Below are positions 1,724 to 51,211 of a DNA stretch of 53,487 nt, in pieces. The number at the start of each line of letters is the position of its first letter. Position 1 is the stretch's first letter. Source of the DNA: a virus (Duplodnaviria; Caudoviricetes); IMG/VR virus record IMGVR_UViG_3300031028_000001, positions 1 through 53,487 of that record, one strand, 5' to 3'. Made by a program: the position numbers and the translations under genes. The notes below the pieces were generated by a model. That model was not told the origin of the DNA. It did no database searches and was given only the letters and a program-made list of their open reading frames with translations.

Positions 1724-1947
1724 GCATCCGCCGCTGGAAGCGCGTCGTTCGCCACGCCGTGCGCCTCGGAATGCTCAGTGAGCCTCAAGGCCGCGAGACG
1801 ATACACCACTACCTCTGGCTGCTCCGCGCGATCCGCGAGGACAAGAAACAGCGTGACAGCCGACCCCAACTCAGTCATGCCGTGCCACGAGGGAGTCCCA
1901 ATAAATCGAGGCTCACAAACCAAAAACGAAAGCTGAGGATCGTATGA
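1720..1947 (+). CDS. Hypothetical protein whose C-terminus reads through repeat R1
   Basis: ATGA-coupled ORF with AGGAG upstream. Confidence 0.55.
   Translation: MSIRRWKRVVRHAVRLGMLSEPQGRETIHHYLWLLRAIREDKKQRDSRPQLSHAVPRGSPNKSRLTNQKRKLRIV
1834..1919 (+). repeat. Dispersed five-box repeat, copy R1
   Basis: ...ACAAGAAACAGCGTGACA...CTCAGTCATGCCGTGCCACGAGGGA...CGAGGCTCACAAA. Confidence 0.9.
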
Positions 1948-2231
1948 ACATTCTCGAATTCACCTGCTTACGTGCCGGCTTCACGCCTAAAGAACTGGGA
2001 CTGGACGACTCCGTGCTCGAAGGCGCCGGCAACCAGCCGCTCAGCATCCGGTATGATCTGGGGCACGACGAACGGCTCTATCGAGTGTTCTTCAAATACC
2101 GCCGGCCAGCTATCCCGAAACCGAGGCCTCCGTACATCGTGCCACCGCCGCGCGACTGGTGGACCGCGGAAAGTGAACGGGAAGCGGTTGCTTCGGCCGA
2201 AGCCGCGCGGACCAAAGGAGCCACGGCATGA
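1944..2231 (+). CDS. Hypothetical phage protein
   Basis: GAGGA RBS, ATGA coupling. Confidence 0.65.
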   Translation: MNILEFTCLRAGFTPKELGLDDSVLEGAGNQPLSIRYDLGHDERLYRVFFKYRRPAIPKPRPPYIVPPPRDWWTAESEREAVASAEAARTKGATA

Positions 2232-2482
2232 GCGCGCGTCCACAGAGGGCCAGAATCACCCATCCAGAGGAACAGCAACTCGATGAGACCTTGCATCTGA
2301 TCGCCATGATGGTGGAGGACTGCGTATCATCCCATCGCTTCGAGGAAGGCCGCCAGAAGCGCATTGCCGAGGGCCAGGAGCATGTCTGCGTGGTCTGCGG
2401 ATGCTCGGAGTCGAGGAGTTGCGAGGAGGGCTGTGTGTGGGCTAATGAGACGCATTGTTCGAGGTGCATATGGACCCCGTGA
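2228..2482 (+). CDS. Small Cys-rich protein (CVVCGCSE...C...C...CSRC)
   Basis: Zn-binding-type Cys pattern common in phage accessory ORFs; AAGGAG RBS. Confidence 0.7.
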   Translation: MSARPQRARITHPEEQQLDETLHLIAMMVEDCVSSHRFEEGRQKRIAEGQEHVCVVCGCSESRSCEEGCVWANETHCSRCIWTP

Positions 2483-2579
2483 TGGCGGCTCTCCATCGAC
2501 CGGCCGTAGCCATCGTGCTGCTGGGGATCGTTCTAGTCGTCGCGCTCTGGGTGATTTTCGCACCAAGAAAGGATCGTTC

Positions 2580-2942
2580 ATGACAGACACGGAGCTGCGC
2601 AGTAAAATCAGCGCATTCACCAGCCGAAAGCAGCAGTGTGAGGAGAAGATCGTCACCTTGGCGCGCGCTGTAACGCCGGTATTGCACGATCACAACCTAC
2701 ACGCCTGTGCGAAACCCTTGGACGAGGCGCTTTTTGAAATGGACGCCATCGAGCAAGAGATGGTGGAACTCGTGAAAGCGGACCCGCAGCAATTCTTCAA
2801 GGTGTTGATATGTCATGACCCGGGATGCCCGTATAGCATTCAGCGAGGTGGTGCGGTTGATGGCACTTTTGACCGAGGCCAAGACGCCGCACGCCAAGGC
2901 ACTAGCGGTGGTGATCAGCGAGCGCCTGATCAACCTCTCTGA
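2580..2942 (+). CDS. Hypothetical protein
   Basis: AAGGA RBS before ATG 2580; helical N-terminal part; the 3' end overlaps the next ORF. Confidence 0.55.
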   Translation: MTDTELRSKISAFTSRKQQCEEKIVTLARAVTPVLHDHNLHACAKPLDEALFEMDAIEQEMVELVKADPQQFFKVLICHDPGCPYSIQRGGAVDGTFDRGQDAARQGTSGGDQRAPDQPL

Positions 2943-3132
2943 AACCGATGACAGCGGCGACATCCTGCCCGAGAGCGAGATAGCTGAGTGGATTCGGTTC
3001 GCGCGATTACTCAAGGTCCAGGACCAAGCGGCGGCCGCTAACGCCAGCAAGAAACGGCGTGGCACCAAATCCGGCTCAGTCATACCGTTTGGCGAGGGAG
3101 CGGGAACGCCGCGAGGCTCACAAAAGCCATGA
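2815..3132 (+). CDS. Hypothetical protein whose C-terminus reads through repeat R2
   Basis: ORF track; ATGA-coupled to the next gene. Confidence 0.6.
   Translation: MTRDARIAFSEVVRLMALLTEAKTPHAKALAVVISERLINLSETDDSGDILPESEIAEWIRFARLLKVQDQAAAANASKKRRGTKSGSVIPFGEGAGTPRGSQKP
3039..3124 (+). repeat. Dispersed five-box repeat, copy R2
   Basis: TAACGCCAGCAAGAAACGGCGTGGCACC...CTCAGTCATACCG...CGAGGGA...CGAGGCTCACAAA; ends 4 bp before ATG 3129. Confidence 0.9.
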
Positions 3133-3347
3133 GAACGATCTGGCTGCACGCCATCAACCGCAGGGTAACGCTGGCCTCCTACCTGGCTGCCGTGCGTCTG
3201 GCGCAAGCCAATCCTACAGTGACGTTCAAACACGGCTTCACCACCTGGTGGCCGACCACCGGAGAGGAAATCATGCGCCAGTTCCGGGAAGGGGTGACCG
3301 ACCGCATCAACCAGGCCATCCCCTATTGCAAACGAGGAATTCAGTGA
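3129..3347 (+). CDS. Hypothetical phage protein
   Basis: ORF track, coupled start and stop. Confidence 0.65.
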   Translation: MRTIWLHAINRRVTLASYLAAVRLAQANPTVTFKHGFTTWWPTTGEEIMRQFREGVTDRINQAIPYCKRGIQ

Positions 3348-3529
3348 TGAAGATTCGTAAGATCCGTTGTGAAGGCTGTGGAGTGGAATTCTACTGGTGG
3401 GAAGGACACTCGTTTGCAGAGTGTTTAAAAGCGAAAGAGTGGAGAGAGCAGCAGGAGTACTTAGATCGATTGGAACTGGATTTTGTGAGCCTCGATGTGC
3501 CACAATCGCGCGTCATACGTCATGACTGA
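3347..3529 (+). CDS. Small CxxC protein whose C-terminus reads through repeat R3
   Basis: GAGGA RBS; MKIRKIRCEGCG. Confidence 0.55.
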   Translation: MKIRKIRCEGCGVEFYWWEGHSFAECLKAKEWREQQEYLDRLELDFVSLDVPQSRVIRHD

Positions 3530-3566
3530 GGCGAGGGTGTCCGGTCGGGGGAGTGTTTGCGTAGAG
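3482..3566 (-). repeat. Dispersed five-box repeat, copy R3 (inverted)
   Basis: Reverse complement: CTCTACGCAAA...GACCGGACACCC...CTCAGTCATGACGTATGACGCGCGATTG...CGAGGCTCACAAA. Confidence 0.9.
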
Positions 3567-3576
3567 AGGGGGAACG

Positions 3577-4209
3577 ATGAAAGCTGTTCGGATCTATTCG
3601 GATCGAAAGCTCAGCCGACAACAGATCTGGGAAATGAAGCGGCTGTGGCGCGACGTTCCCCACGTGCAATGCAAGGGGCTCTGCCAGGGTGCTTGCACCA
3701 ACGTTCCACTGATGCCGGTCGAAGCGATCTACCTGATCGAAAAGCACGCCGCCAACCCGCTGCCGGCGTGGCACGGCTTCGGCTACAAGGCGACCATGAT
3801 GCCCACTCTCGGCATCAATGGCCCTTGCGAGTTCCTGCGGGAGGGACGCTGTTCGATCTACGACGACCGTCCGGCGGTCTGCCGGGAATACGGCCACAAA
3901 GTGCTCACGCTCGACTGCGGGCACGATTGCCAGCCGTCCAGGCCGTTCACCAACGAAGCGGCCAGCGCGATCATGCTGTTGATGTCCTACGTGCTGGATA
4001 TTCAGGGTGCGATGGCTGTGGTCATTCCCCGCGATAGCGAGCTAGTCTTCCGGCATCTGCAGGAATCCGTCGATAACCTGTGTGTTGATGTCGAGATGGA
4101 AGACGGCGAGGAAATCTCTGCCAGCGGAAACAGCGTGACACCCGAACCCAACTCAGTCATGCCGTGCAACGCGCGAGACGGAACGTTGCGAAGCCACAAA
4201 GGGCTATGA
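3577..4209 (+). CDS. YkgJ-like Cys-cluster (Zn/Fe-chelating) protein
   Basis: CKGLCQGAC ... CEFL...RCSIYDDRPAVCREYG signature. Confidence 0.8.
   Translation: MKAVRIYSDRKLSRQQIWEMKRLWRDVPHVQCKGLCQGACTNVPLMPVEAIYLIEKHAANPLPAWHGFGYKATMMPTLGINGPCEFLREGRCSIYDDRPAVCREYGHKVLTLDCGHDCQPSRPFTNEAASAIMLLMSYVLDIQGAMAVVIPRDSELVFRHLQESVDNLCVDVEMEDGEEISASGNSVTPEPNSVMPCNARDGTLRSHKGL
4116..4200 (+). repeat. Dispersed five-box repeat, copy R4
   Basis: CTCTGCCAGCGGAAACAGCGTGACACCC...CTCAGTCATGCCGTGCAACGCGCGA...CGAAGCCACAAA; ends 5 bp before ATG 4206. Confidence 0.9.
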
Positions 4210-4433
4210 AGCTCACTGTCGTATTGGCCCGCTATCCTCCCAACACCCCAAAAGCCGGTTACCTGGCAGCCTATGCGGTATCCGAAGATGCCCGCCGCGG
4301 CCGCAATCTCCTGGCAGGGATGCACATCACCGGAGTGCCACATGCCAAGAACATGGTGAAACGCGAGCTGAACTACCTGATGCCAGGAGCGGAAATCACA
4401 TTCGAAGGTCCGGAGGGAGAAGTGGGGAAATGA
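4206..4433 (+). CDS. Hypothetical phage protein
   Basis: ATGA-coupled ORF. Confidence 0.6.
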   Translation: MKLTVVLARYPPNTPKAGYLAAYAVSEDARRGRNLLAGMHITGVPHAKNMVKRELNYLMPGAEITFEGPEGEVGK

Positions 4434-4696
4434 TCGACGATCGCGTTCCTGAACAACTCGAGAACCTGGTGCTCTACGCCTGGGTGGGACCGAAGGACGA
4501 CCCGCACGCCCAAGACGACCACTGGGGCATCAAGATAGGCGTGGTGCCGGCGGGCACGATTCCCCTGGTGGCGATTGATCGTACCAAAGTCGAGAAGGTG
4601 TGGCCGCAGATGAAGGGCTTGGCGAGGGGCACCGGGAAGGTGCGGTATCTCGCGCGGTTCGAGTTTGCCGGCGTGGTGCGGGTGGAGAAGCCGTGA
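4430..4696 (+). CDS. Hypothetical phage protein
   Basis: Coupled ORF in the early cluster. Confidence 0.65.
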   Translation: MIDDRVPEQLENLVLYAWVGPKDDPHAQDDHWGIKIGVVPAGTIPLVAIDRTKVEKVWPQMKGLARGTGKVRYLARFEFAGVVRVEKP

Positions 4697-5022
4697 TGCC
4701 AGTCGTAATCGTACAAGCGCTTTGCCCGTCACGGCATTGCATCGTGGCGTGCGCGAAAGAGGGAGAAGACCCGAAATTATTGGAATTCTTCCGCCGCATG
4801 ATCGAAGTCGCGGTTTCCCGCCACGCCATCAACCCGCATTGTGGTCTGTGCGGCGCGCCGAAGAGCACCTGGACCTACGAGGTTGGCGTCACGAAGTTTG
4901 CCACGATGGAGGAGGCGCTCCCGGAGATCCAGCGCCTGGAAGCTGAGCAGCTTGAACTGCGCCGGCAGATGTTCACCTCCGGGCGTGCGTTCGATGTGCT
5001 GCATGGGACGGGGAAACTTTGA
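4696..5022 (+). CDS. Cys-rich hypothetical protein
   Basis: LCPSRHC ... HCGLCGA; TGATG coupling. Confidence 0.65.
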   Translation: MPVVIVQALCPSRHCIVACAKEGEDPKLLEFFRRMIEVAVSRHAINPHCGLCGAPKSTWTYEVGVTKFATMEEALPEIQRLEAEQLELRRQMFTSGRAFDVLHGTGKL

Positions 5023-5354
5023 TGGGACGCGCGTCGCGCCGGAAGCCGGCCCACGTCGTCAGTCAGCGGGTGGCCGACAGTCCGTGCCCGAACTGCGGCA
5101 AGCTGCTGAGCGGCGTAACGGCTGCAAGCATTGGCGCGCCCTTCGAGCCTGGGCCGATTCGCTACAAGGGCCATGCGACCCTGTGTGGCTATTGCGGAGC
5201 GCTGCTGATCTTTGCCGACGATGCCGGGCGGGTGCGCGCGATGAGCGAACGCGAACGCAATTCGTTGCAGCTTGCGCCGATCGTGGAGCAGCTCTACGCC
5301 CAGTGGCGGGCGGAGCATCCGGTTGGAGACTTCACCAGGAAGCGGTTCAATTAG
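5019..5354 (+). CDS. Zn-ribbon-like hypothetical protein
   Basis: CPNCG ... CGYCG pairs. Confidence 0.7.
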   Translation: MMGRASRRKPAHVVSQRVADSPCPNCGKLLSGVTAASIGAPFEPGPIRYKGHATLCGYCGALLIFADDAGRVRAMSERERNSLQLAPIVEQLYAQWRAEHPVGDFTRKRFN

Positions 5355-5357
5355 CCA

Positions 5358-5442
5358 CCACGCCCGCAAGAACCCGCGTGACACCCAGCGGTCCTCAGTC
5401 ATGCCGTGCCCGTGAGCGACAGAACGCATCGCAGCTCACAAA
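5358..5442 (+). repeat. Dispersed five-box repeat, copy R5
   Basis: CCACGCCCGCAAGAACCCGCGTGACACCC...CTCAGTCATGCCGTGCCCGTGAGC...CGCAGCTCACAAA; fills the gap between two convergent stops (5354 and 5448). Confidence 0.9.
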
Positions 5443-5447
5443 AGGCT

Positions 5448-5825
5448 CTAACCGCTGGCCGCCATACCCTGAGGCTGGAAAGCCTTCAGTGCCGTAGTTA
5501 GCGCCTCAATCCGCGTAGTGACATCCCGGCTCTCCGTTTGCAACGCCTCTATCCGGTTCAGCTCGTGATCGATCTGGGCTTTACGGGTGGTCAATTGATC
5601 GAGGGCGGTTTGCAGGTGCGTTTTGGGATCGGCTGCGGTGATGGTCTGCTTCCCTGGAACTTCCACGACCTTGACTTCCCCGCCACTGATCGTTTCGATC
5701 GTCTGGTGGTGCCGCTGGTGGCTCGCCAGGGCGGTATGGCTCTTGAACGTGCGGCCAGGATGGTCCGGGCAGGTCAACGCCTGCCGGGCCGGGGTCCGGG
5801 CTTTATTCTGCTTGGGCTGCTTCAT
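5448..5825 (-). CDS. C2H2-like Zn finger plus coiled-coil protein
   Basis: CPDHPGRTFKSHTALASHQRHH followed by a heptad-rich helix. Confidence 0.65.
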   Translation of the reverse strand: MKQPKQNKARTPARQALTCPDHPGRTFKSHTALASHQRHHQTIETISGGEVKVVEVPGKQTITAADPKTHLQTALDQLTTRKAQIDHELNRIEALQTESRDVTTRIEALTTALKAFQPQGMAASG

Positions 5826-5871
5826 GCAAACATTGTCGCCCTTTTTTGTCGTAAGCGGTAAAATTCCGGGT

Positions 5872-6054
5872 ATGAACCAGAAAGCGAAATTCGTAGCGTT
5901 CTGCGAGAACAAACTGAAGCTCACCGAAGCCCAGGCGCAGATTCTCTACGATGGCATTAACGAGGACCCGTTGGGGTTCAAGGGCCAGATCCATACGGCG
6001 TGGCCGGATGTGTTCGAGGCTCCGGAAAAAGGGACAGAGAGCGCCAGACCCTAG
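5872..6054 (+). CDS. Small hypothetical protein
   Basis: ATG 5872, divergent from the previous gene. Confidence 0.5.
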   Translation: MNQKAKFVAFCENKLKLTEAQAQILYDGINEDPLGFKGQIHTAWPDVFEAPEKGTESARP

Positions 6055-6088
6055 AAAGGAGGGCGCGGAAGATAGCCAGAGCCATCTG

Positions 6089-6154
6089 TCGGATGCGGCT
6101 CCATACGGAGCACGTTTATTCCTGGCCGGGGTAACGGAGCGGGGTCGCATCCGA
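6089..6154 (+). ncRNA. Putative structured RNA stem upstream of the tRNA-like element
   Basis: TCGGATGCGGCTCC (6089-6102) pairs with GGGGTCGCATCCGA (6141-6154); both mismatches are G-U pairs on the + strand. Confidence 0.45.
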
Positions 6155-6167
6155 TTTCATTTCTTGT

Positions 6168-6244
6168 GGAGCGGTAGCTCAGAGGCAGAGCGGCCGGTGT
6201 GTAGGGCGGCAGGTTCGGGAGGGTTCGATTCCCTCCCCGCTCCA
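6168..6244 (+). tRNA. tRNA-like RNA with aberrant anticodon arm (identity not assignable)
   Basis: Acceptor GGAGCGG/CCGCTCC-A; D arm GCTC-AGAGGCA-GAGC; T arm GGAGGG-TTCGATT-CCCTCC. The anticodon arm is only GCCG/CGGC with a 10-nt loop, and no CCA is encoded. Confidence 0.7.
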
Positions 6245-6270
6245 TTCAATACTCAAATACTCATTTGTTG

Positions 6271-6350
6271 CTTGGGGCTCCGCGCATTCTGGCTCTTACG
6301 TGCGCTTGGTCGCTGAGCCGCGCTGGGTAGCCTGCTTTGATTTCGTCAGG
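6271..6350 (-). repeat. Dispersed five-box repeat, copy R6 (inverted, degenerate)
   Basis: Reverse complement: ...ACCCAGCGCGG CTCAGCGACC AAGCGCA CGTAAGA GCCAGAATGCG CGGAGCCCCAAG. Confidence 0.7.
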
Positions 6351-6361
6351 AGTTGGGGCGG

Positions 6362-6565
6362 TCATGCCTTCGCCAGCTTTGCGCGTTCCGCCCAGAACTT
6401 GTAGCGCGCATGTTCGATGGGCTTCCCGGAATGCAGGATAGCTTCCGCCATTGTCTGATCCAGGCCAGTCGAGCGCTCGATCAAAGCGAAGAACGCCTCC
6501 ATATCCTGGACCTCGACCGTCGCCTGAAGATTTTTCGCGTAATAGGTCCAAGTTGGTTCCGTCAT
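6362..6565 (-). CDS. Small hypothetical protein bracketed by R6/R7
   Basis: GAGAGGGAGAG RBS then ATG (MTEPTWTYY...). Confidence 0.65.
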   Translation of the reverse strand: MTEPTWTYYAKNLQATVEVQDMEAFFALIERSTGLDQTMAEAILHSGKPIEHARYKFWAERAKLAKA

Positions 6566-6576
6566 TCGCTCTCCCT

Positions 6577-6659
6577 CTCTACGTTGGAATCCGCCCGGCA
6601 TTCCACCGCCGCGCAGCCTTCCATCCTACCGCGCGACTGAGGCGCGCGAAGCACCCAAA
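6577..6659 (+). repeat. Dispersed five-box repeat, copy R7
   Basis: CTCTACG...CGGCA...CGCAGCCTTC CATCCTAC CGCGCGA CTGAGGCGCG CGAAGCACCCAAA. Confidence 0.8.
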
Positions 6660-6967
6660 AACATCTCACGCAGTTCTCTGATTATCTGTGCTACCTCCAG
6701 ATGGTACAGCCGTGCAAATCTCACAGGCCCCAACTTGTGCAGTGACAGATTCCCTCTTGAGTGATGCCCCCGGCATAGTGGAATAGCCTGTCTGTCATCC
6801 GCCTTCTGCGATAATCCCCGCGGTCCGGTATGCGCCGATTCTATATACCGCCATGAGCCGCAAACGGCGCAAGGCTGCGCCCGGACCCAGGCGAGATACT
6901 TCCGATCCCGCGTCGGGGGTTCTGAGCGCTTCCAGGGGCGAGGAATGAGCATATACGCCTTCATCAT
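6626..6967 (-). CDS. DUF968/Ref-like HNH-type nuclease domain protein
   Basis: KYLAWVRAQPCAVCG ... AHTG.RG...KADD...IPLCRGHH signature. Confidence 0.75.
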   Translation of the reverse strand: MMKAYMLIPRPWKRSEPPTRDRKYLAWVRAQPCAVCGSWRYIESAHTGPRGLSQKADDRQAIPLCRGHHSRGNLSLHKLGPVRFARLYHLEVAQIIRELREMFLGASRASVAR

Positions 6968-7500
6968 CGGCGGCCTCCGGAGATGAGCCGGTTCATTAAC
7001 AGACAGCGCACGTCATCGCGCGAAACGACGTCGCCATGCCGTTCGCTCGCGTACCGGCAGCAGCTCGCGAAGAGATCGATGATCGCTTCGGTTTGCGCCT
7101 GCAAATGCGCTAAGCTTTTGGCGAGTGGCGCAATCACGGGCTGGCTGGGTTTGATACCATTTTCCTGGCCAGTTCCCAGGGCAGCCACCCGCATCGCAAC
7201 CTCCGGATTTGGCGCGGGCTTTGGAGAATCGCTCGCGCCGTTCTTTTCCCGCCAGATATCCCACCGTTTCGCTTCGCCGCGCTCTCCGGACCGCAGGCAG
7301 ATATTGAACAGCTCGTGAGGCCGGATGCCCATCTGCGGGATCGACGCGGCAACCTCGGGATCGAGAAACAACGTGCGCCCGTCCACGCAAGTGAACATCG
7401 CGCGCTGGCCGGACGCGGTACTGAACAGCTTCGGCTGTTGGTATTTCACGGCGAGCTGTACGGGCACGTTGGCGGCGAAGGCTACGATGTTGGCGGCCAT
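6964..7500 (-). CDS. Hypothetical phage protein
   Basis: GGAGGT RBS and TAATG coupling; start at 7500 (MAANIVAF...). Confidence 0.7.
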   Translation of the reverse strand: MAANIVAFAANVPVQLAVKYQQPKLFSTASGQRAMFTCVDGRTLFLDPEVAASIPQMGIRPHELFNICLRSGERGEAKRWDIWREKNGASDSPKPAPNPEVAMRVAALGTGQENGIKPSQPVIAPLAKSLAHLQAQTEAIIDLFASCCRYASERHGDVVSRDDVRCLLMNRLISGGRR

Positions 7501-8070: not shown

Positions 8071-8088
8071 TGAATTGCCTCTATATTC

Positions 8089-8117
8089 ATCATACGTGCT
8101 TCTAGCACGTAGGTCAA
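8089..8117 (-). promoter_or_regulatory. Leftward sigma70-type promoter with palindromic operator in the spacer
   Basis: TTGACC-17 bp-TATGAT; operator TACGTGCT-N3-AGCACGTA at 8093-8111. Confidence 0.85.
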
Positions 8118-8670: not shown

Positions 8671-8757
8671 CCACGCCCGCAAAAACCAGCCTGACACCCC
8701 CGCGTAGCTCAGTCATCCCCCTTGACGAGAGAGAGAAAACGGCGCGAAGCTCACAAA
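8671..8757 (+). repeat. Dispersed five-box repeat, copy R8
   Basis: CCACGCCCGCAAAAACCAGCCTGACACCC...CTCAGTCATC...CGAGAGA...CGAAGCTCACAAA. Confidence 0.9.
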
Positions 8758-8782
8758 TACAGGAGGGCTTTTCGCAAGCGCC

Positions 8783-9343: not shown

Positions 9344-9386
9344 AGCTGATTATCGAAAGCACCACCAAAATCGTGAAGCTGAACGG

Positions 9387-9435
9387 CTCAGTCATGCCGT
9401 GCGACGTGAGCGGCAGAACGCCACGGAGCCACAAA
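9387..9435 (+). repeat. Dispersed repeat, copy R9 (boxes 3-5 only)
   Basis: CTCAGTCATGCCGTGCGACGTGAGC...CGGAGCCACAAA; directly abuts the stop codon of the last late-operon gene. Confidence 0.9.
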
Positions 9436-11031
9436 CTAAAGCGGTCCAATCTGCCATACAGGCGCACTAGGACAGCTCGTATAAAACAACTGATCTACTG
9501 CTGAGTAGCCGCCGCCCATACAGCCATTCGACTGTCCTGCCGGCCGCTGCCCGACATCCCACCCTGACGGATCAGATAGCGAGTGCGAGGCGTGATGCCG
9601 CATGTAGAAGTTCCCATAATCGGCGACGAATCCGACGATGGGATCGCTCGGTGTGTGGACGTTCAGCCAGGTGAGCTGGAAACTGCCGGCCGTGACCTGG
9701 TTGGCGAGCGGGCTCGGCGGATGAAACAGGGGAGGATAGGCGAAGCCGGCGGCGGTCCAGGCTGAATTGGTGGTCAGGTTCGTCACGTCGAACATTTCCC
9801 AGGTGGAAGTCGAGGCCGTGATATCGAGCGAAGTGAATCCGGAGGGGCACGCTTGGGTCCCGGCTGCCGGCGAGCTGCAGGTGGCCACCGGGACTCGCAG
9901 CACGGTAGAAAGCAGCACCGTGGTAGCGTGCGACGTCGTGGTGGTGTTCGATCCAAATGGCGTGAAATACAGATACTCGATGGTCCCGGCCGGGTTCCAG
10001 ACAGGCTGTCCGCCGATGTAATCGTTCTGCGTCTGGACCGCGTGCAGGTTGCCTGAGCCAGTGACGGCCGGGTAACCGACGGTGCCCAGATTCGACAGAT
10101 TCAGGACTTTGTAGGGCGTGCCAGAAGCGTTGGTGAAACTCTGCGTGGTGTCATAGACCACCAAATTGCGGCTATCTGCTGGAAGCAGATAGACCTTCTG
10201 GCCATCGAAGGCGCTCGACTCGAAGCCTCCATTCAGCGCGCCTCCAGGAAGTGTGGAGAGATTGAAGTGCGAGAAATTGGCGATCGCGAACGGCTGTGTG
10301 GTGTCGTACCGGATCAGATTCGTATTCGCGTAGCCGCCGGCATCGGTGGGCGTGTAATAGATGTACCTGCCATCGAACACGCCAGTGCACCAGCCATAGG
10401 TAGCGCCCAGGGGCGAGGTCCCCGCGGTTGGAGCCGAAAACGAAGTATAGTTTGCCGCATTCGAAACCGATGTGCCGCCCGATCCGGCGGAACCGAAAGG
10501 ATTGAAGCGGACGAAAACAGGATTCTGATTGGCCGCATCCGGAGTGTAGTAGACGAAGTTGAGATCCGTCGCGACTCCGACGAAGGCTGTAGCGGCATCC
10601 GCGCCAGGGCACGTATAGGTCGCCGGACAATTCAGCGGCAGCGTGGTCATGTCGAACCAGTCCCAGTTGGCCGCGGCGCACGTTGATGTGGTGCAGCCAA
10701 ACGTTCCCGAGGGGCCTCCGGCATAGGCGATCACCGTTCCGTGGCGATAGATGGTCTGGTATTGCCAGGGATCGAAGCCGGCCAGGCCGTTCAGATACCA
10801 GCCGCCCTGATAGCCCACCGCGAGATGCGCGCCGCTGTCCACTGTGGGGAAGCCGGGGAAGATCGTGGTGCTTGGGGAGAACCCGTGCGAGGTGAGCGTT
10901 AGCACGTTGAACGGCGCCGGCGCCTGGGCACCCATCTGCGTGGGGCCTTGGACCGAGACTTTCCCAGCCGTGCTGACTTGCGCGATCGCCGGAAAAAGAA
11001 TAGCAAAACAAAGGAATAAGAATTTCAGCAT
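9436..11031 (-). CDS. Signal-peptide protein, beta-propeller-like (adhesin/tail-appendage-like)
   Basis: MLKFLFLCFAILFPAIAQ; repeated FDGRYIYYTP / FDGQKVYLLP blade-like motifs. Confidence 0.75.
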   Translation of the reverse strand: MLKFLFLCFAILFPAIAQVSTAGKVSVQGPTQMGAQAPAPFNVLTLTSHGFSPSTTIFPGFPTVDSGAHLAVGYQGGWYLNGLAGFDPWQYQTIYRHGTVIAYAGGPSGTFGCTTSTCAAANWDWFDMTTLPLNCPATYTCPGADAATAFVGVATDLNFVYYTPDAANQNPVFVRFNPFGSAGSGGTSVSNAANYTSFSAPTAGTSPLGATYGWCTGVFDGRYIYYTPTDAGGYANTNLIRYDTTQPFAIANFSHFNLSTLPGGALNGGFESSAFDGQKVYLLPADSRNLVVYDTTQSFTNASGTPYKVLNLSNLGTVGYPAVTGSGNLHAVQTQNDYIGGQPVWNPAGTIEYLYFTPFGSNTTTTSHATTVLLSTVLRVPVATCSSPAAGTQACPSGFTSLDITASTSTWEMFDVTNLTTNSAWTAAGFAYPPLFHPPSPLANQVTAGSFQLTWLNVHTPSDPIVGFVADYGNFYMRHHASHSLSDPSGWDVGQRPAGQSNGCMGGGYSAVDQLFYTSCPSAPVWQIGPL

Positions 11032-15551: not shown

Positions 15552-15560
15552 GAAGGGCCT

Positions 15561-15643
15561 TTTGGGTGCTTCGTGCGCTTCAATCGCGCGTCAATCTCAA
15601 GGCTGTGTTGCGATTCGATGCCGGGTCACTTCCGCTGGTAGAC
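15561..15643 (-). repeat. Dispersed five-box repeat, copy R10 (inverted)
   Basis: Reverse complement: GTCTACCAGCGGAAGTGACCCGGCA...CACAGCCTTG AGATTGA CGCGCGA TTGAAGCGCA CGAAGCACCCAAA. Confidence 0.85.
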
Positions 15644-17684: not shown

Positions 17685-17768
17685 CTCTACGAAAAAAGCT
17701 GAATGACCGGACGCTCTGGCTCAGTCATGCCGTGCCCGCGAGAGGCACACAGCCACGAAGCTCAGAAA
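17685..17768 (+). repeat. Dispersed five-box repeat, copy R11
   Basis: CTCTACGAAA...GACCGGACG...CTCAGTCATGCCGTGCCCGCGAGA...CGAAGCTCAGAAA. Confidence 0.9.
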
Positions 17769-42004: not shown

Positions 42005-42623
42005 CAGGAAAACCGGCTCTGGCTGGATCATGCCGTGCGGCTTCCGCTGGTAGAGAATCCGTGGGATTGCCAATAAATTCGCCCTTGGCGAGTGACCCCA
42101 AGCGCACCGTTCCGCCGAAATACTCATCGAGCGGAAACAGGCCGTACGGCCGCATCTCGCGAAAGGTCCGGCCAAGCTTCTGCTCAATCTGATAGACCGC
42201 ATGAAAGAACGCATAGCGGTCGATCTTCATCCGGCTGCAGCAAGCGTGGTAGTCAGCGCCTTCGAGGAAGTGGCGCCGGAAAATCTCATACTCGAACTCG
42301 TCCAGTATGCGCCGGCTCACCAGGCAGAAATCCGCGATATACTCCTCGGTCTTGCGGCCGTACATCACACGATTGTCCTTGGTATGGCCGAATTCGAGAG
42401 ACACACTGCTCATGTGTTTTTCCTGTTTCATTAGGTCTCGAAAGCGTCCATAACAGGCTCGGAAGATGGCCCGGAAAACGCATTCACAGGGGCGCTGCCG
42501 ATCGCAACCGCGGGTAGTGCGCATGCCGAAGCCATGGCAGTTTGCGCAGTGCGGTTTGGCCATCGCAATGGTCTGGGATCGATCCCAATTAAACGCGATC
42601 GCAGGTTTCAGTCGAGAATCCAT
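41994..42623 (-). CDS. Cys-rich protein with C-terminal sigma-region-4-like helices; possible late transcription regulator
   Basis: CANCHG...CECVFRAIFRACY; LDEFEYEIFRRHFLEG; position upstream of the packaging genes. Confidence 0.55.
   Translation of the reverse strand: MDSRLKPAIAFNWDRSQTIAMAKPHCANCHGFGMRTTRGCDRQRPCECVFRAIFRACYGRFRDLMKQEKHMSSVSLEFGHTKDNRVMYGRKTEEYIADFCLVSRRILDEFEYEIFRRHFLEGADYHACCSRMKIDRYAFFHAVYQIEQKLGRTFREMRPYGLFPLDEYFGGTVRLGSLAKGEFIGNPTDSLPAEAARHDPARAGFPAYP
42011..42055 (-). repeat. Partial copy of the dispersed repeat (boxes 1-3) next to the recombinase-1 core site
   Basis: Reverse complement CTCTACCAGCGGAAGCCGCACGGCA matches R12 CTCTGCCAGCGGAAGCCGCGCGGCA at 23 of 25 positions. 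Confidence 0.8.
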
Positions 42624-43087: not shown

Positions 43088-43170
43088 CTTGTGGCTTCGC
43101 GGCTCCGCAATCGCGCGAAAAGTGAGTGACTGTGTTGTGACTCAGTGCCGCGCGGCTTCCGCTGGCAGAG
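43088..43170 (-). repeat. Dispersed five-box repeat, copy R12 (inverted)
   Basis: Reverse complement: CTCTGCCAGCGGAAGCCGCGCGGCA...CACAGTCACT CACTTTT CGCGCGA TTGCGGAGCCG CGAAGCCACAAG. Confidence 0.85.
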
Positions 43171-46294: not shown

Positions 46295-46295
46295 T

Positions 46296-46529
46296 TCAGC
46301 AGCCCTCCACTTTGCGGTTCCAGGACCACTGCTCCACCGATCCCAACTGCTCCCAGGTCTTTCGGGCTCCGCCGTCGTGGTAGGTTGGCCGTTTGCGGAC
46401 ATCGGCCTCATAATCGGCCTTGCCACGTGCGGGGAGAGCCGAATTGTAGCGGTCAATCTGCTCCTGAACGGAACCGAGTCCCTTTACTTTCGCTTCCGCC
46501 GTGGTCAGGTACATTTTGTTGTTTTCCAT
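46296..46529 (-). CDS. Small hypothetical protein upstream of the transposase (IS passenger)
   Basis: AGGA RBS; lies inside the IS ends. Confidence 0.6.
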   Translation of the reverse strand: MENNKMYLTTAEAKVKGLGSVQEQIDRYNSALPARGKADYEADVRKRPTYHDGGARKTWEQLGSVEQWSWNRKVEGC

Positions 46530-46582
46530 GTCCTAATGATACATGGTTCCCGTACGGGAGTCAAGTATATAATTCCCTACTT

Positions 46583-46936
46583 TTAGGCAGCCGGAGTGTT
46601 AGCTGTGACAGCGGCCGCCAGCGAGGTGGCGGACGTGTTGAGGGAAGCTGCCAGCGCGGCGATAGCGGCCGGATCGTTGGCGTTCGCCACCAGTTGCGCC
46701 GCAAGGCCCTGAATCAGGGTGATGGCGCTCTGTTCGACGGTAGTGTTCTGGGTAACTTGCGCGGTAAGTGCTGCTAGGTCCATGATTTCCTCTTTTTGGT
46801 TGGCTAGAATCTGGTCCAACTTTGAATCCACCGCATCTAGCCGTGCGGCGAGTTGGGCGTACAACTGGAGAGCCCAGTCCATCTTGGGCGGAAAGCCTGG
46901 TGAAGCGGGACTCGGCGGCGTTGGTTCGGTGGACAC
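46583..46936 (-). CDS. Ala-rich helical hypothetical protein
   Basis: GTG start inferred; the stop codon lies in the IS target duplication. Confidence 0.65.
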   Translation of the reverse strand: MSTEPTPPSPASPGFPPKMDWALQLYAQLAARLDAVDSKLDQILANQKEEIMDLAALTAQVTQNTTVEQSAITLIQGLAAQLVANANDPAAIAALAASLNTSATSLAAAVTANTPAA

Positions 46937-48563: not shown

Positions 48564-48649
48564 ATTGGGGCTTCGCGACGTTCAGCCGCTTACGTCGTCT
48601 TGATGGCTCTTCAGCGCCTCGGTGTCAGGGCTGCTTTTTGCGGGCGTTG
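48564..48649 (-). repeat. Dispersed five-box repeat, copy R13 (inverted)
   Basis: Reverse complement: CAACGCCCGCAAAAAGCAGCCCTGACACC...AAGAGCCATC AAGACGA CGTAAGC GGCTGAACGTCG CGAAGCCCCAAT. Confidence 0.8.
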
Positions 48650-48800: not shown

Positions 48801-48814
48801 GGCGCTCTCTCCCT

Positions 48815-48898
48815 CTCTACGCAAAGCCTTGCACGGCAGACCACCGCTCAACAGCCATCCATCATAGCGCGCGATTGAAAGGCATCGAAGCACCCAAG
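48815..48898 (+). repeat. Dispersed five-box repeat, copy R14
   Basis: CTCTACGCAAA...CGGCA...AACAGCCATC CATCATAG CGCGCGA TTGAAAGGCAT CGAAGCACCCAAG. Confidence 0.85.
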
Positions 48899-48968
48899 AG
48901 AAAAGACCGTCATGATACGGTGATGATAAATTATCAAGACCACATCATGATCCCCTCTGGCCCACCGC

Positions 48969-49370: not shown

Positions 49371-49537
49371 TTCACCCAAGCACCGATTGGCGCGGGTTTG
49401 GCGAGGCTTGGCGCGGCATTCCACTACGTCTCGACGTCACTGCACAGATGCGCAATATGGTATTCCCAATCAGGACGAATAAGGTCGTTATCCTGCATTC
49501 AACCTTCAAGTGATGGTTTAGCTGCTCAAGCGATGCT

Positions 49538-49813
49538 TTAACTCTTGGCGCCGGACGCCGGCTCTTCCACGATGACGCGGAATCTGAATTTCTGAGCCTC
49601 GTGGGTGAGAGTGCGGTATGCCTGCATGAAATGCTTGATGGGTTCCCTGACCGAGATTTCCTCGAAGCTCACTCCGCAACCGCCGCACGATGCTGGGGCC
49701 TGAGTGTTCGCGCCGGCGTCAATCGTAAGCCTAGCCTTGCAGTTGGAGCACGTGATCTCCAGATACCGGAGATCGGTGAAATCGAGGGCGGTCAGTTTGG
49801 TCATGGAGAGCAT
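49538..49813 (-). CDS. Zn-ribbon hypothetical protein
   Basis: CSNC ... CGGCG. Confidence 0.65.
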   Translation of the reverse strand: MLSMTKLTALDFTDLRYLEITCSNCKARLTIDAGANTQAPASCGGCGVSFEEISVREPIKHFMQAYRTLTHEAQKFRFRVIVEEPASGAKS

Positions 49814-49814
49814 G

Positions 49815-50036
49815 TTAACTCTTCGGCAGTGAGATCTTGCCCCTGCCTCCGAGCGAGATGCCCTGCGCGTCGAGGGTTGGCACCGGGCGCGCGTGGGTTG
49901 CGATCGGCGTGCGCTGCTTGCGTTGCCATTGCAGTTCTTCGAGAATGGCTGCGAGATACAGTTCGATCCCATAGCTCTCGGTCGTGGGTGATGGGGTGGG
50001 CAACCGCTTGCCGCTCAAGCTTTCCATAGGATTCAC
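49815..50036 (-). CDS. Hypothetical protein
   Basis: Coupled ORF. Confidence 0.5.
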   Translation of the reverse strand: MNPMESLSGKRLPTPSPTTESYGIELYLAAILEELQWQRKQRTPIATHARPVPTLDAQGISLGGRGKISLPKS

Positions 50037-50917
50037 TCTTTTATCCCGCCTTCAGCCAGCGCTTGCATGAAATCCTTTACGTGTCCGAGCACGCTCAACG
50101 CTCTGCCTTGGTCGTAGGGCACATCCGAAACATGCATGACGTGGTTCCGCCACGCATCCTTCAAAAACATGAAATGGGTTGCCGCTTGCGAGCAGAATTT
50201 CTGTTGCTCCTTCCAGTCGGGACCGAGGCTGGAATTCATTTTTCTGATTTCTTTCTCCACCGCTTCGATGACGTTGTGCCAGTTGGTATGACTGAAATCC
50301 ACACCGAACTTTACTGCCAGGGTGCGGAGCCCCCGCTCAAGAACTCTCATCAAATGGTATACAGCCGCCTCTCCTTGCTCAAGCGCGTAGCAGTTGCCGG
50401 CATCTCGAATTTCGGTGATGCACGACGGGAATGCTGTGTTAACCGCTATTCCGAACAGATCGTCTTTCTGGAAGTACTTCTCGTTTTCCTCCCGGATTCT
50501 GAGAAAGACCCGCTTCCGGAGTTCCGCAGAAAACGAAAACCTCAAAGTATCCAGATCGCTCAACATCTCGTGGTATGTATATGCCTCGCCTTTTCGAAGT
50601 ATCTGGGCCTCGTGGTGTGAGATCAGGCCTGAAGTGTGCTCCAAGGCTAGAGCATCGCATTCCTTTCGCATCTCGGAAAGAGATTTTGATAGCGCTTGAC
50701 GCAGTGAGGCGTCAACCGTCGTCGGGCGAGAACTGGAAGACATAATCTTGGCGTGTTGGTATTGGTTTTCAAGGTGGCAAACAACCTCGTAGAAACCGAA
50801 GGCGTACCTCTCCAGCATGTCCCATAGGCTCACCAGCCTGTTGGAATTCTCGCCGTCGAGGCAGGCTGGTAGCGCGTCCTTACGGGAAGAAACCGCTTCG
50901 TCAATTGCCAACATCAC
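50033..50917 (-). CDS. HEPN-like domain protein
   Basis: A.YHLMRVLE.GLR helix and an Rx4H motif (WRNHVMH); start uncertain. Confidence 0.65.
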   Translation of the reverse strand: MMLAIDEAVSSRKDALPACLDGENSNRLVSLWDMLERYAFGFYEVVCHLENQYQHAKIMSSSSRPTTVDASLRQALSKSLSEMRKECDALALEHTSGLISHHEAQILRKGEAYTYHEMLSDLDTLRFSFSAELRKRVFLRIREENEKYFQKDDLFGIAVNTAFPSCITEIRDAGNCYALEQGEAAVYHLMRVLERGLRTLAVKFGVDFSHTNWHNVIEAVEKEIRKMNSSLGPDWKEQQKFCSQAATHFMFLKDAWRNHVMHVSDVPYDQGRALSVLGHVKDFMQALAEGGIKE

Positions 50918-51125
50918 AGCACCCGCGTAAGATGAAAAGTGCTGCGAACCCGCGTCAACGGGTTGGCGGTTTTTTCCAGTAAGAGTTTTTTGGGGGCCAC
51001 TTTCCGTGGCCCTTCGCTTTCCTTAGCCTAGCAACGCTGTCCTCTGAACGCGACACTTGTGTGCTGTCCTGACAACAGACGATGGGCTATTTTTCTTCGG
51101 GCAGTGGCCGTTTCAGCATGGGCCT

Positions 51126-51211
51126 TTTGTGGGCCTCGATGCGTTCAGGCGCTCGCGTTCACCGCATGACTGAGCAATGTCACCCAGTCGTGCGAGTTCT
51201 TGCTGGCGTGG
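51126..51211 (-). repeat. Dispersed five-box repeat, copy R15 (inverted)
   Basis: Reverse complement: CCACGCCAGCAAGAAC...GTGACATTG CTCAGTCATG CGGTGAA CGCGAGC GCCTGAACGCAT CGAGGCCCACAAA. Confidence 0.9.

What the first reader, a model, noticed from the sequence alone, without database searches (positions are those of the whole stretch)
1834..51211. About 15 dispersed ~85-90 bp five-box repeats at gene junctions: candidate phage gene-cassette recombination system
Seen: copies at 1834+, 3039+, 3482-, 4116+, 5358+, 6271-, 6577+, 8671+, 9387+ (partial), 15561-, 17685+, 43088-, 48564-, 48815+ and 51126-. The shared layout is box1 (CTCTRC or CACGCC, then often MGCRRAA), box2 (GTGACA or CGGCA), box3 (CTCAGTCATG, usually 28-31 bp after box1), 7-8 bp, box4 (CGCGCGA or CGTGAG), 10-12 bp, box5 (CGARGC[T]CACAAA). 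Spacer lengths are conserved while spacer sequences vary. Copies occur only in accessory and fibre regions; I found none in the core from 17.8 to 41 kb. They fill intergenic gaps almost exactly or are read through by gene C-termini, and they occur in both orientations relative to transcription. I see no target duplications. Inference: fixed spacing suggests multi-site protein-bound DNA. Mixed orientation, plus copies between convergent stops (R5, R9), argues against simple promoters or terminators. This fits recombination sites that shuffle genes, analogous to integron attC sites or pdif modules, but it matches no site family I recognise.
Basis: partly seen in the sequence, partly recalled or inferred. 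Interest (0 to 1): 0.92.

Follow-up and report, generated by a model that had tools for sequence, protein, structure and literature searches.

The report
Polar gene-boundary repeats in peat phages
A temperate phage from peat carries 15 copies of a 90-base DNA element that sits exactly at the starts and ends of genes with a fixed polarity; it is a real element family of unknown function, more likely a gene-expression boundary signal than a recombinase site.

Summary
The window is a whole 53.5-kb temperate siphovirus record.

The family recurs in related metagenomic phage contigs: 80 unique copies in 16 contigs. It was not found in more distant relatives or in the bacterial genomes searched.

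The recombination-site reading is not supported:
- No copy folds as a hairpin, as RNA or as single-stranded DNA.
- There are no attC cores, Xer-like arms, terminal inverted repeats or target duplications.
- No inversion or excision joint was seen.
- Homology breaks fall at element-free gene boundaries too.

What emerged instead is a strict polarity. The conserved 3' end (CGAAGCnCmCAAAA) abuts a start codon in forward copies and a stop codon in reverse copies. Orientation alternates along contigs (42 of 54 steps). One subtype (ATCGCGCGATTGA) goes with starts (11 starts, 1 stop).

Single copies are gained or lost precisely between a stop and the next ATG. Two orthologous copies persist where the flanking proteins are only 38-46% identical.

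Best reading (about 0.4): protein-recognised DNA signals marking transcription-unit boundaries, which also act as homology patches for module exchange. The nearest analogues are T4-type PeSLs and mycobacteriophage ESAS. The function is untested.

The parts
1834..1919 (+). Repeat copy, type 1 (box 3 CTCAGTCATG). It lies inside the 3' end of ORF 1720-1947. ATG 1944 follows 24 nt after its 3' end.
   Evidence: (E 3.6e-15)
3040..3126 (+). Repeat copy, type 1, forward before a start. ATG 3129 follows 2 nt after its 3' end. It is read through by ORF 2815-3132, whose stop overlaps that ATG (ATGA).
   Evidence: (E 2.5e-16)
3481..3567 (-). Repeat copy, type 2 (CGCGCGATTG), reverse to the local + genes. 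Its 3' end faces 133 nt of non-coding DNA after stop 3347. Its 5' end (box 1, CCCTCTCTACG) lies 10 nt from ATG 3577 and doubles as that gene's Shine-Dalgarno-like stretch on the other strand.
   Evidence: (E 1.1e-12)
4115..4201 (+). Repeat copy, type 1, forward before a start. ATG 4206 follows 4 nt after its 3' end. It is read through by ORF 3577-4209. Orthologous copies in L200, L206 and L209 have different upstream genes.
   Evidence: (E 2.8e-17)
5359..5444 (+). Repeat copy, type 1, between convergent stops (5354 and 5448). Together with gene 5022-5354 it is absent from relative L206.
   Evidence: (E 8.3e-17)
6271..6354 (-). The most diverged copy. It forms a head-to-head pair with 6576+ across a spacer of about 220 nt that holds small ORF 6362-6565(-). 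Its 3' end faces the tRNA-like 6169-6243.
   Evidence: (E 1.4e-9)
6576..6661 (+). Repeat copy, type 2, reverse to the local - genes. Its 5' end lies 10 nt from ATG 6565 of a - ORF.
   Evidence: (E 1.2e-11)
8672..8758 (+). Repeat copy, type 1, forward, 24 nt before ATG 8783. It lies downstream of the perfect sigma-70-type promoter at 8373-8401. A variant DNA contig diverges at 8667.
   Evidence: (E 1.1e-16)
9377..9437 (+). Partial copy (model positions 29-89; boxes 1-2 missing), between convergent stops 9343 and 9436. Its 3' end overlaps the stop of the 531-aa gene.
   Evidence: (E 1.6e-11)
15560..15642 (-). Repeat copy, type 2, forward before a start. It lies between stop 15649 and ATG 15551 (8 nt) of the 1504-aa collagen-repeat fibre gene. 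An orthologous copy precedes the homologous gene in G002.
   Evidence: (E 1.1e-12)
17685..17768 (+). Repeat copy, type 1, reverse after a stop. It lies between stop 17780 of the 388-aa gene and the start of the 676-aa gene. An orthologous reverse copy follows the homologous gene in G002.
   Evidence: (E 1.3e-14)
42015..42059 (-). Chimeric remnant: boxes 1-2 of a minus copy joined to the reverse complement of a box 3 stretch. It lies at the point (42028) where homology to relative L053 ends.
   Evidence: D9, D14; E 2.9
43088..43170 (-). Repeat copy, type 2, forward before a start. It lies between stop 43173 and ATG 43079 (8 nt) of a Zn-ribbon plus GerE/LuxR-HTH gene, at the head of the long minus-strand block that runs to 17780.
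   Evidence: (E 2.8e-12)
48564..48648 (-). Repeat copy, type 1 (box 3 variant CTGAAGAGCC). It forms a head-to-head pair with 48814+ across a spacer of about 160 nt.
   Evidence: (E 7.1e-11)
48814..48900 (+). Repeat copy, type 2, reverse to the local minus-strand genes. Its box 1 is CCCTCTCTACG.
   Evidence: (E 6.2e-13)
51124..51211 (-). Repeat copy, type 1. Its 5' end lies about 36 nt from the ATG of a divergent + ORF with a signal-peptide-like start. Its 3' end is followed by a 10-codon mini-ORF.
   Evidence: (E 3.5e-17)

Best explanation
The repeats are a clade-specific family of non-palindromic, strand-asymmetric, multi-box double-stranded DNA elements, about 90-105 bp long. They mark the boundaries of genes and operons with a fixed polarity.

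**Proposed mechanism (inferred).** A phage- or host-encoded DNA-binding factor, together with host RNA polymerase, recognises the shared boxes.
- Forward copies lie directly upstream of a start codon. They act as the start module: a non-sigma-70 promoter or activator site plus an A/C-rich, Shine-Dalgarno-poor leader.
- Reverse copies lie directly behind a stop codon. They act as the end module: a polar stop or insulator for transcription leaving or entering the unit.

Each accessory gene, each fibre gene and the long minus-strand block would then be a separately bounded expression unit. Because the boxes are conserved between phages whose genes are not, the elements would also serve as short homology patches. 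Modules would be swapped at these patches by ordinary homologous recombination, as proposed for T4-type PeSLs.

**Shown:** the family, its polarity, its subtypes, its precise gain and loss, its conservation, and the absence of folds and of recombinase-site features.

**Inferred:** protein binding, promoter and stop activity, and the role in exchange.
For: **Position and polarity**
- The conserved 3' end abuts a codirectional start (gaps 0-45 nt, often 0-12) or a convergent stop (gaps 0-10 nt in most). Of 80 copies, 29 abut starts, 17 abut stops, and 34 have no called gene end nearby.
- Orientation alternates in 42 of 54 neighbour steps in the 14 contigs other than the window (binomial p = 2.6e-5).
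- In the window, copies bracket units:
  - 43088- ... 17685+ around the 25-kb minus-strand block;
  - 15560- ... 9377+ around the two fibre genes;
  - 3040+ ... 3481-;
  - 51124- ... 48814+.

**Subtypes track context**
- Type 2 (ATCGCGCGATTGA) abuts 11 starts and 1 stop. Type 1 abuts 18 starts and 16 stops.
- Within type 1, the after-stop copies favour GCTGAATGACC in box 2.

**A DNA signal, not an RNA**
- There is no consensus fold on either strand for either type.
- Single-base indels separate the boxes.
- Read-through ORFs use different frames.
- Type 2 has box 3, GATTGA and CGAAGC spaced 17-18 nt and about 7 nt apart. That is a promoter-like geometry, judged from my own reading of the alignment.

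**A start signal is needed**
- Element-rich contigs show no sigma-70 consensus upstream of their genes. G004 has 4 matches against 3.7 expected, and none lies in front of a gene. G002 has 6 against 5.1.
- The window does hold a perfect TTGACA-17-TATAAT promoter at 8373-8401, so the host is likely to read canonical promoters.
- In G002 two type 2 copies follow divergent gene pairs, where a promoter must lie.

**Selection acts on the element**
- Copies are 72-90% identical between contigs whose shared proteins are 25-72% identical (most 25-59%).
- Orthologous copies persist before the fibre gene (protein 38% identical between G000 and G002) and after the 388-aa gene (46% identical).

**Exchange**
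- 25 of 98 internal homology ends lie in elements, against 6 expected.
- Box variants combine as a mosaic.
- Three lineages share the 4115+ copy and its downstream gene but have different upstream genes.
Against: - No box matches a known promoter consensus. The sigma-70 scans find nothing in the elements. My checks against sigma-54, sigma-28 and ECF spacing, done by eye, failed.
- Reverse copies have no stem-loop plus U-tract, so a stop function would need a protein or Rho.
- No binding protein was identified. No protein family is shared by the element-bearing fragments apart from structural proteins and recombinases. The GerE-HTH gene next to copy 43088- has no homologue in the fragments held.
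- Three type 2 copies in the window (3481-, 6576+, 48814+) point into DNA without a called gene.
- 34 of 80 copies have no called gene end within the limits used, and my gene calls are a home-made codon-usage caller.
- Metatranscriptome data were contigs only. They show no ends or strands.
Confidence: 0.4

Rival explanations
1. Site-specific recombination sites of a phage gene-cassette system (attC- or pdif-like). One of the two tyrosine recombinases would cut within the element, and the modules between oppositely oriented sites would be inverted, excised and captured.
For: - The genome encodes two tyrosine recombinases.
- Orientation alternates as it does for pdif modules.
- One gene-plus-element indel ends exactly at the element's 3' end.
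- A chimeric remnant sits at a homology break.
Against: - There is no single-strand hairpin.
- 0 of 80 copies carry both attC cores.
- Xer-like arm pairs are at the shuffle level.
- The recombinases score far below the XerC, XerD and integron-integrase cut-offs.
- No inversion appears in any multi-block comparison.
- The laid contigs show no joints between copies; the joints listed there are relatives' copies mapping across.
- Gene indels also occur at junctions without elements.
- Conservation is spread over five boxes and 90 bp, not concentrated in one core.
Confidence: 0.07
2. A non-autonomous selfish mobile element (MITE-like) that spreads within and between these phages and survives only at gene junctions. 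Any regulatory effect would be secondary.
For: - A discrete filled-versus-empty site: G002 19412-19508 against TGAcATG in the window.
- E-S modules are present around the same genes in L195 and absent in G002.
- The family has many copies, subfamilies, and truncated and chimeric copies.
- It is restricted to one clade.
Against: - Terminal inverted repeats and target duplications do not exceed shuffled controls in 80 copies.
- No transposase is associated. The IS1595 element in the window has its own unrelated 36-bp ends.
- Copies within one genome are only about 60-90% alike, with identity concentrated in boxes.
- Orientation relative to genes is non-random.
- Orthologous copies are kept across deep protein divergence.
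Confidence: 0.15
3. An RNA-level signal. The A/C-rich forward copy would form a 5' leader and the G/U-rich reverse copy a 3' trailer. The two would pair, either across a gene or as a long hairpin between neighbouring genes, to give RNase III processing, mRNA stabilisation or translational control.
For: - Box 5 lies directly beside the start and stop codons and is complementary between forward and reverse copies.
- The head-to-head pair in G004 folds far better than shuffles (z = -6.2).
- In both folded pairs the base of the stem joins the two box 5 stretches.
- Pieces of elements occur in contigs from RNA libraries.
Against: - There is no consensus structure in either orientation.
- The G001 pair is not better than shuffles (z = -1.4).
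- Partner copies do not co-vary in box 5, from my reading.
- Many copies are solitary, or have partners 6-25 kb away.
- Three copies lie inside coding sequence.
- RNA-library contigs may be DNA carry-over.
Confidence: 0.12

Closest known systems
PeSL (promoter-early stem-loop) cassettes of T4-type phages (PMC2839356: abstract and section 13 read; PMC4122927: abstract read)
   Same: - Both are repeated composite intergenic motifs that run from the stop codon of one gene to the start codon of the next.
- Both are concentrated in the variable regions and associated with accessory genes.
- Both come in subclasses.
- PeSLs are proposed to bound expression units and to serve as points of homologous exchange between otherwise unrelated genes.
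   Different: - A PeSL is a sigma-70 consensus promoter plus a stable stem-loop. The elements here have neither.
- As I read the paper, PeSLs lie upstream of genes, stop to start. Here the same family also occurs inverted behind stop codons, and orientation alternates.
- PeSL mini-circles were shown experimentally. No circular or joined form was seen here.
Start-associated sequences and extended SAS (SAS/ESAS) of Cluster K mycobacteriophages (PMC3203893: passages read with 'find')
   Same: - Both are clade-specific repeats with 11-19 copies per genome, confined to the non-structural part of the genome.
- Both end a few bases before start codons and are rare or absent in the host.
- ESAS pairing is not supported by covariation, and its authors favour a DNA-binding protein.
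- The function of both is unknown.
   Different: - An SAS is 13 bp and contains the Shine-Dalgarno core. An ESAS adds two 17-bp inverted repeats.
- Nearly all SAS copies are in one orientation and before starts.
- Here the element is about 90-105 bp, lacks a Shine-Dalgarno core at its 3' end, has no inverted repeat, and also occurs reversed behind stops.
Integron attC sites and Acinetobacter pdif modules (features recalled, not taken from a paper read here)
   Same: Both are repeated sites at cassette borders. In pdif modules the orientation of the sites alternates, as it does here.
   Different: - attC sites are imperfect palindromes that fold as single strands, carry RYYYAAC and GTTRRRY cores, and all point one way.
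- pdif sites are 28-bp sites with XerC and XerD arms.
- None of these features is met here.
REP/BIME, ERIC and MIRU-type bacterial intergenic repeats (recalled)
   Same: Both are short dispersed intergenic repeats. MIRUs can be read through by flanking ORFs whose stop and start codons overlap, as in 3 of the 15 copies here.
   Different: - Those repeats are host-genome-wide and mostly palindromic.
- This family was not found in the bacterial genomes searched and is not palindromic.

Membership tests
Integron attC | An imperfect inverted repeat that folds as a single-stranded DNA hairpin | tested here: not met
   Single-stranded DNA folds of 15 of 15 window copies give z-scores from -1.88 to +0.90 against 200 shuffles each. 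No consensus pairs appear in alignments of 23, 24 and 56 copies.
Integron attC | RYYYAAC and GTTRRRY core sites at the two ends (feature recalled) | tested here: not met
   RYYYAAC occurs in the first 35 nt of 3 copies and GTTRRRY in the last 35 nt of 1 copy. Both occur together in 0 of 80.
Integron attC | An IntI-type integron integrase next to the array | tested here: not met
   Recombinase 40993-41979(-) scores 20.4 bits against the integron-integrase model, whose cut-off is 265. The other recombinase gives no hit to that model.
Integron attC | All sites in one orientation, one per cassette at its 3' end | tested here: not met
   Orientation alternates in 42 of 54 neighbour steps.
pdif / Xer modules | A site of about 28 bp with two inverted arms around a spacer of 6-8 bp (feature recalled) | tested here: not met
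   Pairs of 7-bp arms (up to 1 mismatch, spacer 5-9) occur in 21 of 80 copies against 24% of shuffles, and at no fixed position.
pdif / Xer modules | XerC/XerD recombinases | tested here: inconclusive
   Both phage recombinases are generic tyrosine recombinases. Their best XerD and XerC scores are 63 and 48 bits, against cut-offs of 330 and 335. The host's Xer proteins could not be examined because the host is unknown.
PeSL (T4-type) | A sigma-70 consensus promoter inside the motif | tested here: not met
   None of the sigma-70-type matches in the window (7), G002 (6) or G004 (4) lies in an element. These counts equal the shuffle expectation.
PeSL (T4-type) | A stable stem-loop acting as a terminator | tested here: not met
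   There is no consensus fold. The terminator-like scan places no stem-plus-T-tract consistently in the elements.
PeSL (T4-type) | Sits between stop and start in variable regions, with homology breaks at the motif | tested here: met
   25 of 98 internal homology ends lie in elements against 6 expected, but about 38 lie at element-free gene boundaries.
MITE / small transposable element | Terminal inverted repeats and target-site duplications | tested here: not met
   The best 12-nt window of terminal inverted identity averages 7.2, against 7.3 for shuffled ends. Direct words shared between the flanks have the same distribution as in shuffles (80 copies). The filled and empty sites show no duplication.
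Host-wide REP-like repeat | Many copies in the bacterial host chromosome | tested here: inconclusive
   - A strict pattern gave 0 hits in the collection of one genome per species.
- The model gave 0 of 5 hits in genomes holding the closest IS1595 relatives.
- 2 of 151 genomes of the phylum of G011 gave single marginal matches at E 4e-4 and 8e-4. One of them, G039, is marked unpublished.
- Only 28-150 candidates per genome were scored, and the host is not known.
SAS/ESAS (Cluster K mycobacteriophages) | A 13-bp motif holding the Shine-Dalgarno core 3-7 bp before the start, in one orientation | tested here: not met
   The 3' end CGAAGCnCmCAAAA has no AGGAG core. 17 of the 46 copies with a called neighbour lie reversed behind stops.

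The most novel reading that the evidence does not exclude
One element family, read in opposite orientations, defines both the beginning and the end of every exchangeable expression unit in a clade of peat phages. An as yet unidentified factor would bind the shared boxes and would start transcription out of the element's 3' end. The same bound element would act as a polar barrier at the far side of the unit. Genes would then come as insulated plug-in modules that can be swapped between phages through the conserved boxes. Because the flanking copies are inverted, they cannot delete the gene they enclose. This would be a bacterial-virus counterpart of gene-start and gene-end signals combined with insulators, and a new type of promoter.
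Probability: 0.2. Interest if true: 0.8.

Novelty: new variant of a known kind. Interest (0 to 1): 0.55.

Why it matters
Repeated intergenic motifs are among the few handles on how uncultured phages organise expression and exchange genes.

This family is long and strongly conserved: more so than the genes it separates.

It is strictly polar with respect to coding boundaries and unlike any promoter, terminator or recombination site that I could test.

If it is a boundary signal, three things would follow:
- a non-canonical promoter and stop system for phages of an abundant but poorly studied soil group;
- a ready marker for delimiting expression units and mosaic modules in metagenomic phage contigs;
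- portable insulated cassettes for engineering.

If it is merely a tolerated selfish repeat, it is still a useful clade marker.

Tried and rejected
**Searches for relatives**
- Near-identity searches of the phage collection with both halves of the genome found nothing.
- A terminase protein search found only relatives below 44% identity.
- The repeat model found no copy in 80 terminase-related viral loci totalling 889 kb.
- It found no copy in 5 larger relatives, whose terminases are 46-66% identical and whose estimated completeness is 67-97%. So the family is confined to a narrow clade, or to parts not held.
- The protein of ORF 3577-4209 found no relatives in viral or metagenome contigs.

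**Readings tested and dropped**
- *RNA family:* no Rfam match at gathering thresholds.
- *Coding repeat or micro-ORF:* rejected because single-base indels separate the boxes and the read-through ORFs use different frames.
- *Sigma-54, sigma-28 and ECF promoter spacings:* checked by eye on the alignments, and none fits. This is my own reading, not a tool result.
- *Intrinsic terminator in the reverse orientation:* no stem directly before the T-run of box 1.
- *A small hairpin before CGAAGC:* seen in some copies, but its right arm is not consistently complementary.
- *A conserved gene in the spacers of head-to-head pairs:* 22 spacers of 11-935 nt share no homology apart from one duplicate record.
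- *A shared DNA-binding protein among element-bearing fragments:* none found.

**Host**
- The IS1595 transposase has its best relatives in several phyla. The best is 83%, in a record titled Acidobacteriota. This is only a hint.

**Read laying**
- All four runs were contigs at low depth.
- There were no joints between copies. The entries in table 5c are relatives' copies mapping across two window copies.
- One contig skips 1677-1942 with a short side (30 nt), and one variant diverges at 8667. Both are weak hints of mosaic junctions at element edges.
- Parts of the window without RNA cover carry no meaning.
- The runs that hold the window are labelled peat metagenome.

**Tools and limits**
- Complex prediction, structure prediction, the protein atlas and the large protein searches were not used, because no candidate binding protein emerged.
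- Supplementary files of the three papers were not seen. The PeSL and SAS lists there could refine the comparison.
- Three literature searches turned up no description of this repeat. None of them can search by sequence.

Full report
**What the window is.**
The window is a whole virus record of 53,487 bp with 60% G+C.
- It has a lambda-type head module: portal, S49 protease, capsid E and large terminase.
- Its tail and fibre proteins carry F5/8-type-C and collagen repeats.
- It encodes two tyrosine recombinases.
- It has a divergent pair of sigma-70-type promoters at 8117-8089 and 8373-8401. The second is a perfect TTGACA-17-TATAAT.
- An IS1595-family insertion lies at 44177-46589.
- The genes of the right arm (43-53 kb) lie on the minus strand. 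The long plus-strand ORFs there gave no family hits, while the minus-strand ORFs did.
- The sequence occurs in many runs labelled peat metagenome.

**The observation.**
All 15 copies are real. A profile built from them finds these 15 and nothing else better than E = 0.023. That test is circular.

Independent support comes from other records. A 17-base core and a gapped pattern pulled out viral and metagenomic contigs in which the full-length element recurs at up to one copy per kilobase.

After removing duplicate records I hold 80 unique copies in 16 contigs.

The family was not found in the following searches:
- A strict pattern gave no hit in one genome per prokaryotic species.
- The model gave no hit in five genomes with the closest IS1595 relatives.
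- 149 of 151 genomes of one phylum gave nothing. The other two gave single marginal matches, and one of those genomes is marked unpublished.
- 80 loci around related terminases gave nothing.
- Five larger, more distant relatives gave nothing.

The genome searches scored only a few candidates per genome and the host is unknown. So 'not host-wide' is likely but not proven.

**Anatomy.**
The element is not palindromic.
- Its forward strand is C 34%, A 29%, G 25%, T 12%, against about 30/20/30/20 for the contigs.
- Conservation sits in boxes separated by variable spacers, with single-base indels between them.
- The most conserved part is the 3' end, CGAAGCnCmCAAAA.
- In relatives the element begins further 5', with CAGTGTAACC before box 1.
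- Box variants combine as a mosaic:
  - box 1 is CTCTACGCAAGAA, CTCTACCAGCGGAA or ACGCCCGCAAAAA;
  - box 3 is GCTCAGTCATGCC, CTGAAGAGCCAT or AACACAGYC;
  - the stretch before box 5 is either CGyGAGCGnCnGAACGC (type 1) or ATCGCGCGATTGA (type 2).

**Not an RNA fold, not a peptide.**
- RNAalifold finds at most three pairs.
- Rfam finds nothing.
- Single-stranded DNA folds of the 15 copies are no better than shuffles.
- Three copies are translated as C-terminal tails of upstream genes, in two different frames.

**Polarity: the main new finding.**
In relatives whose genes all run one way, forward copies end 0-20 nt before start codons. Reverse copies begin 0-6 nt after stop codons, and the TAG lies within the conserved ...AAAAGRCTAR end. 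Examples:
- G001: gene 3849-7319 is preceded by a forward copy at 3762-3847 and followed by a reverse copy at 7322-7411. Gene 22560-23657 lies between 22460-22545 (+) and 23660-23746 (-).
- G004: four successive units are bounded in the same way.

Across the 14 contigs other than the window, orientation alternates in 42 of 54 neighbour steps (p = 2.6e-5).

With a uniform but home-made gene caller, the counts for the 80 copies are as follows:

| Subtype | Abuts a start | Abuts a stop | No called gene end within limits |
|---|---|---|---|
| Type 2 | 11 | 1 | 12 |
| Type 1 | 18 | 16 | 22 |

Among type 1, the after-stop copies tend to carry GCTGAATGACC in box 2.

In the window the same logic brackets these units:
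- the 25-kb minus-strand block (43088- to 17685+);
- the two fibre genes (15560- to 9377+);
- gene 3129-3347 (3040+ to 3481-);
- a right-arm unit (51124- to 48814+).

The 5' ends face outward. They form head-to-head pairs with spacers of 11-935 nt that share no homology.

In some window copies a gene starts right at the 5' end, and the complement of box 1 gives a GAGAGGG stretch before the ATG.

**Evolution.**
- Between the window and the related contigs, nucleotide similarity is largely confined to the elements (72-90%). The proteins the window shares with G001-G005 are 25-72% identical, most of them 25-59%.
- Two positions are orthologous between the window and G002: before the fibre gene and after the 388-aa gene.
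- Elements come and go as discrete units:
  - G002 has a reverse copy exactly between a stop and the next ATG, where the window has TGAcATG, and there is no duplication.
  - L195 has reverse-plus-forward modules between genes that are 85-91% identical at the DNA level to genes of G002, which lacks these modules. The homology ends exactly at the TAG and the ATG.
  - G001 has such a module between two core tail genes that are adjacent in the window.
  - The window has a gene plus a copy (5022-5444) that L206 lacks.
- Of 98 internal ends of pairwise alignments, 25 fall in elements (6 expected). About 38 fall at gene boundaries without elements, for example the junction at 4696.
- All multi-block comparisons are collinear.

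**What it is not.**
- It is not an attC site, a Xer site, a MITE or a PeSL by their defining features.
- The recombinases are ordinary for a temperate phage.
- The laid contigs gave no joints between copies.

**What it most likely is.**
The tight anchoring of one end to coding boundaries points to a DNA signal that delimits expression units. So do the subtype that goes with starts and the placement at the head of the long block and of fibre genes. Further pointers are the lack of canonical promoters in element-rich contigs of a phage that elsewhere uses a perfect one, and the conservation beyond that of the genes.

I take forward copies as start modules and reverse copies as end modules, both bound by an unknown factor. 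In type 2 the spacing of box 3, GATTGA and CGAAGC (17-18 nt and about 7 nt) resembles the layout of -35, -10 and +1. This is my reading, not a test.

Exchange of modules through the conserved boxes would follow as a by-product, as proposed for PeSLs (PMC2839356, abstract and section 13; PMC4122927, abstract). The Cluster K SAS/ESAS are a second analogue whose function is also unknown (PMC3203893, passages).

I put this reading at about 0.4. The rivals are:
- a tolerated selfish repeat, 0.15;
- RNA-level pairing, 0.12 (one head-to-head pair folds at z = -6.2 and another at -1.4);
- recombinase sites, 0.07.

The remainder is open.

**Limits.**
- Gene calls are my own codon-usage caller.
- The relatives are fragments.
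- The host is unknown. The IS1595 hint at Acidobacteriota is weak.
- No transcript ends could be seen.
- Paper supplements were not available.

Noticed in passing
window 44177-46589: This is an IS1595-family insertion sequence. The transposase is at 45362-46456(-), and a DUF551 ORF at 44337-44753(-) lies inside the element. The ends are 36-bp inverted repeats at 44177-44212 and 46554-46589 (83% complementary). The closest transposase relatives are in MAGs of several phyla; the best is 83%, in a record titled Acidobacteriota.
   Followed up: partly
window 6169-6243 (+): A tRNA-like gene. ARAGORN calls an odd two-base anticodon. Rfam tRNA scores 27.7 bits, just under the 29-bit threshold, with a 10-nt insert in the anticodon arm. 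Contigs from two RNA libraries cover 6075-6238, and this bin has the highest depth of the 20 kb laid. Several runs have loose ends at 6053 and 6086, as if a short stretch were shared with other genomes.
   Followed up: partly
window 42762-43079 (-) and 43732-44109 (-): A response regulator appears to be split into two genes: a stand-alone receiver domain (125 aa) and a Zn-ribbon plus GerE/LuxR HTH protein (105 aa). They lie 650 bp apart, with two small genes and repeat copy 43088- between them. The HTH gene is the first gene after that copy. No homologue was found in the related fragments held.
   Followed up: partly
window 8064-8401: A divergent promoter region: TTGACC-17-TATGAT on the minus strand (8117-8089) and a perfect TTGACA-17-TATAAT on the plus strand (8373-8401). 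It lies between gene 7696-8070(-) and small plus-strand genes, which looks like a lysis-lysogeny switch. Neither flanking protein matched a repressor family.
   Followed up: no
window 40993-41979 (-) and 52175-53110 (-): Two tyrosine recombinases, 34% identical to each other. The first lies inside the long minus-strand block, between the small terminase gene and the HTH gene.
   Followed up: partly
window 17780-18946, 23400-26024 (families D1, D5): Two tail genes share repeated F5/8-type-C (galactose-binding-like) modules. The fibre genes 11037-15551 and 15649-17679 carry collagen-like GXY repeats.
   Followed up: no
window 42015-42059: A chimeric repeat remnant, made of boxes 1-2 of one orientation fused to the complement of box 3. 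It sits exactly where homology to the closest relative (L053; terminase 90% identical) stops. It may be the footprint of recombination between two inverted copies.
   Followed up: partly
window 3348-3480: A non-coding stretch of 133 nt between gene 3129-3347 and the reverse copy 3481-3567. It holds a hairpin (ACACTC-N7-GAGTGT) and no start codon on the strand the copy points along. It could be a small non-coding transcript.
   Followed up: no
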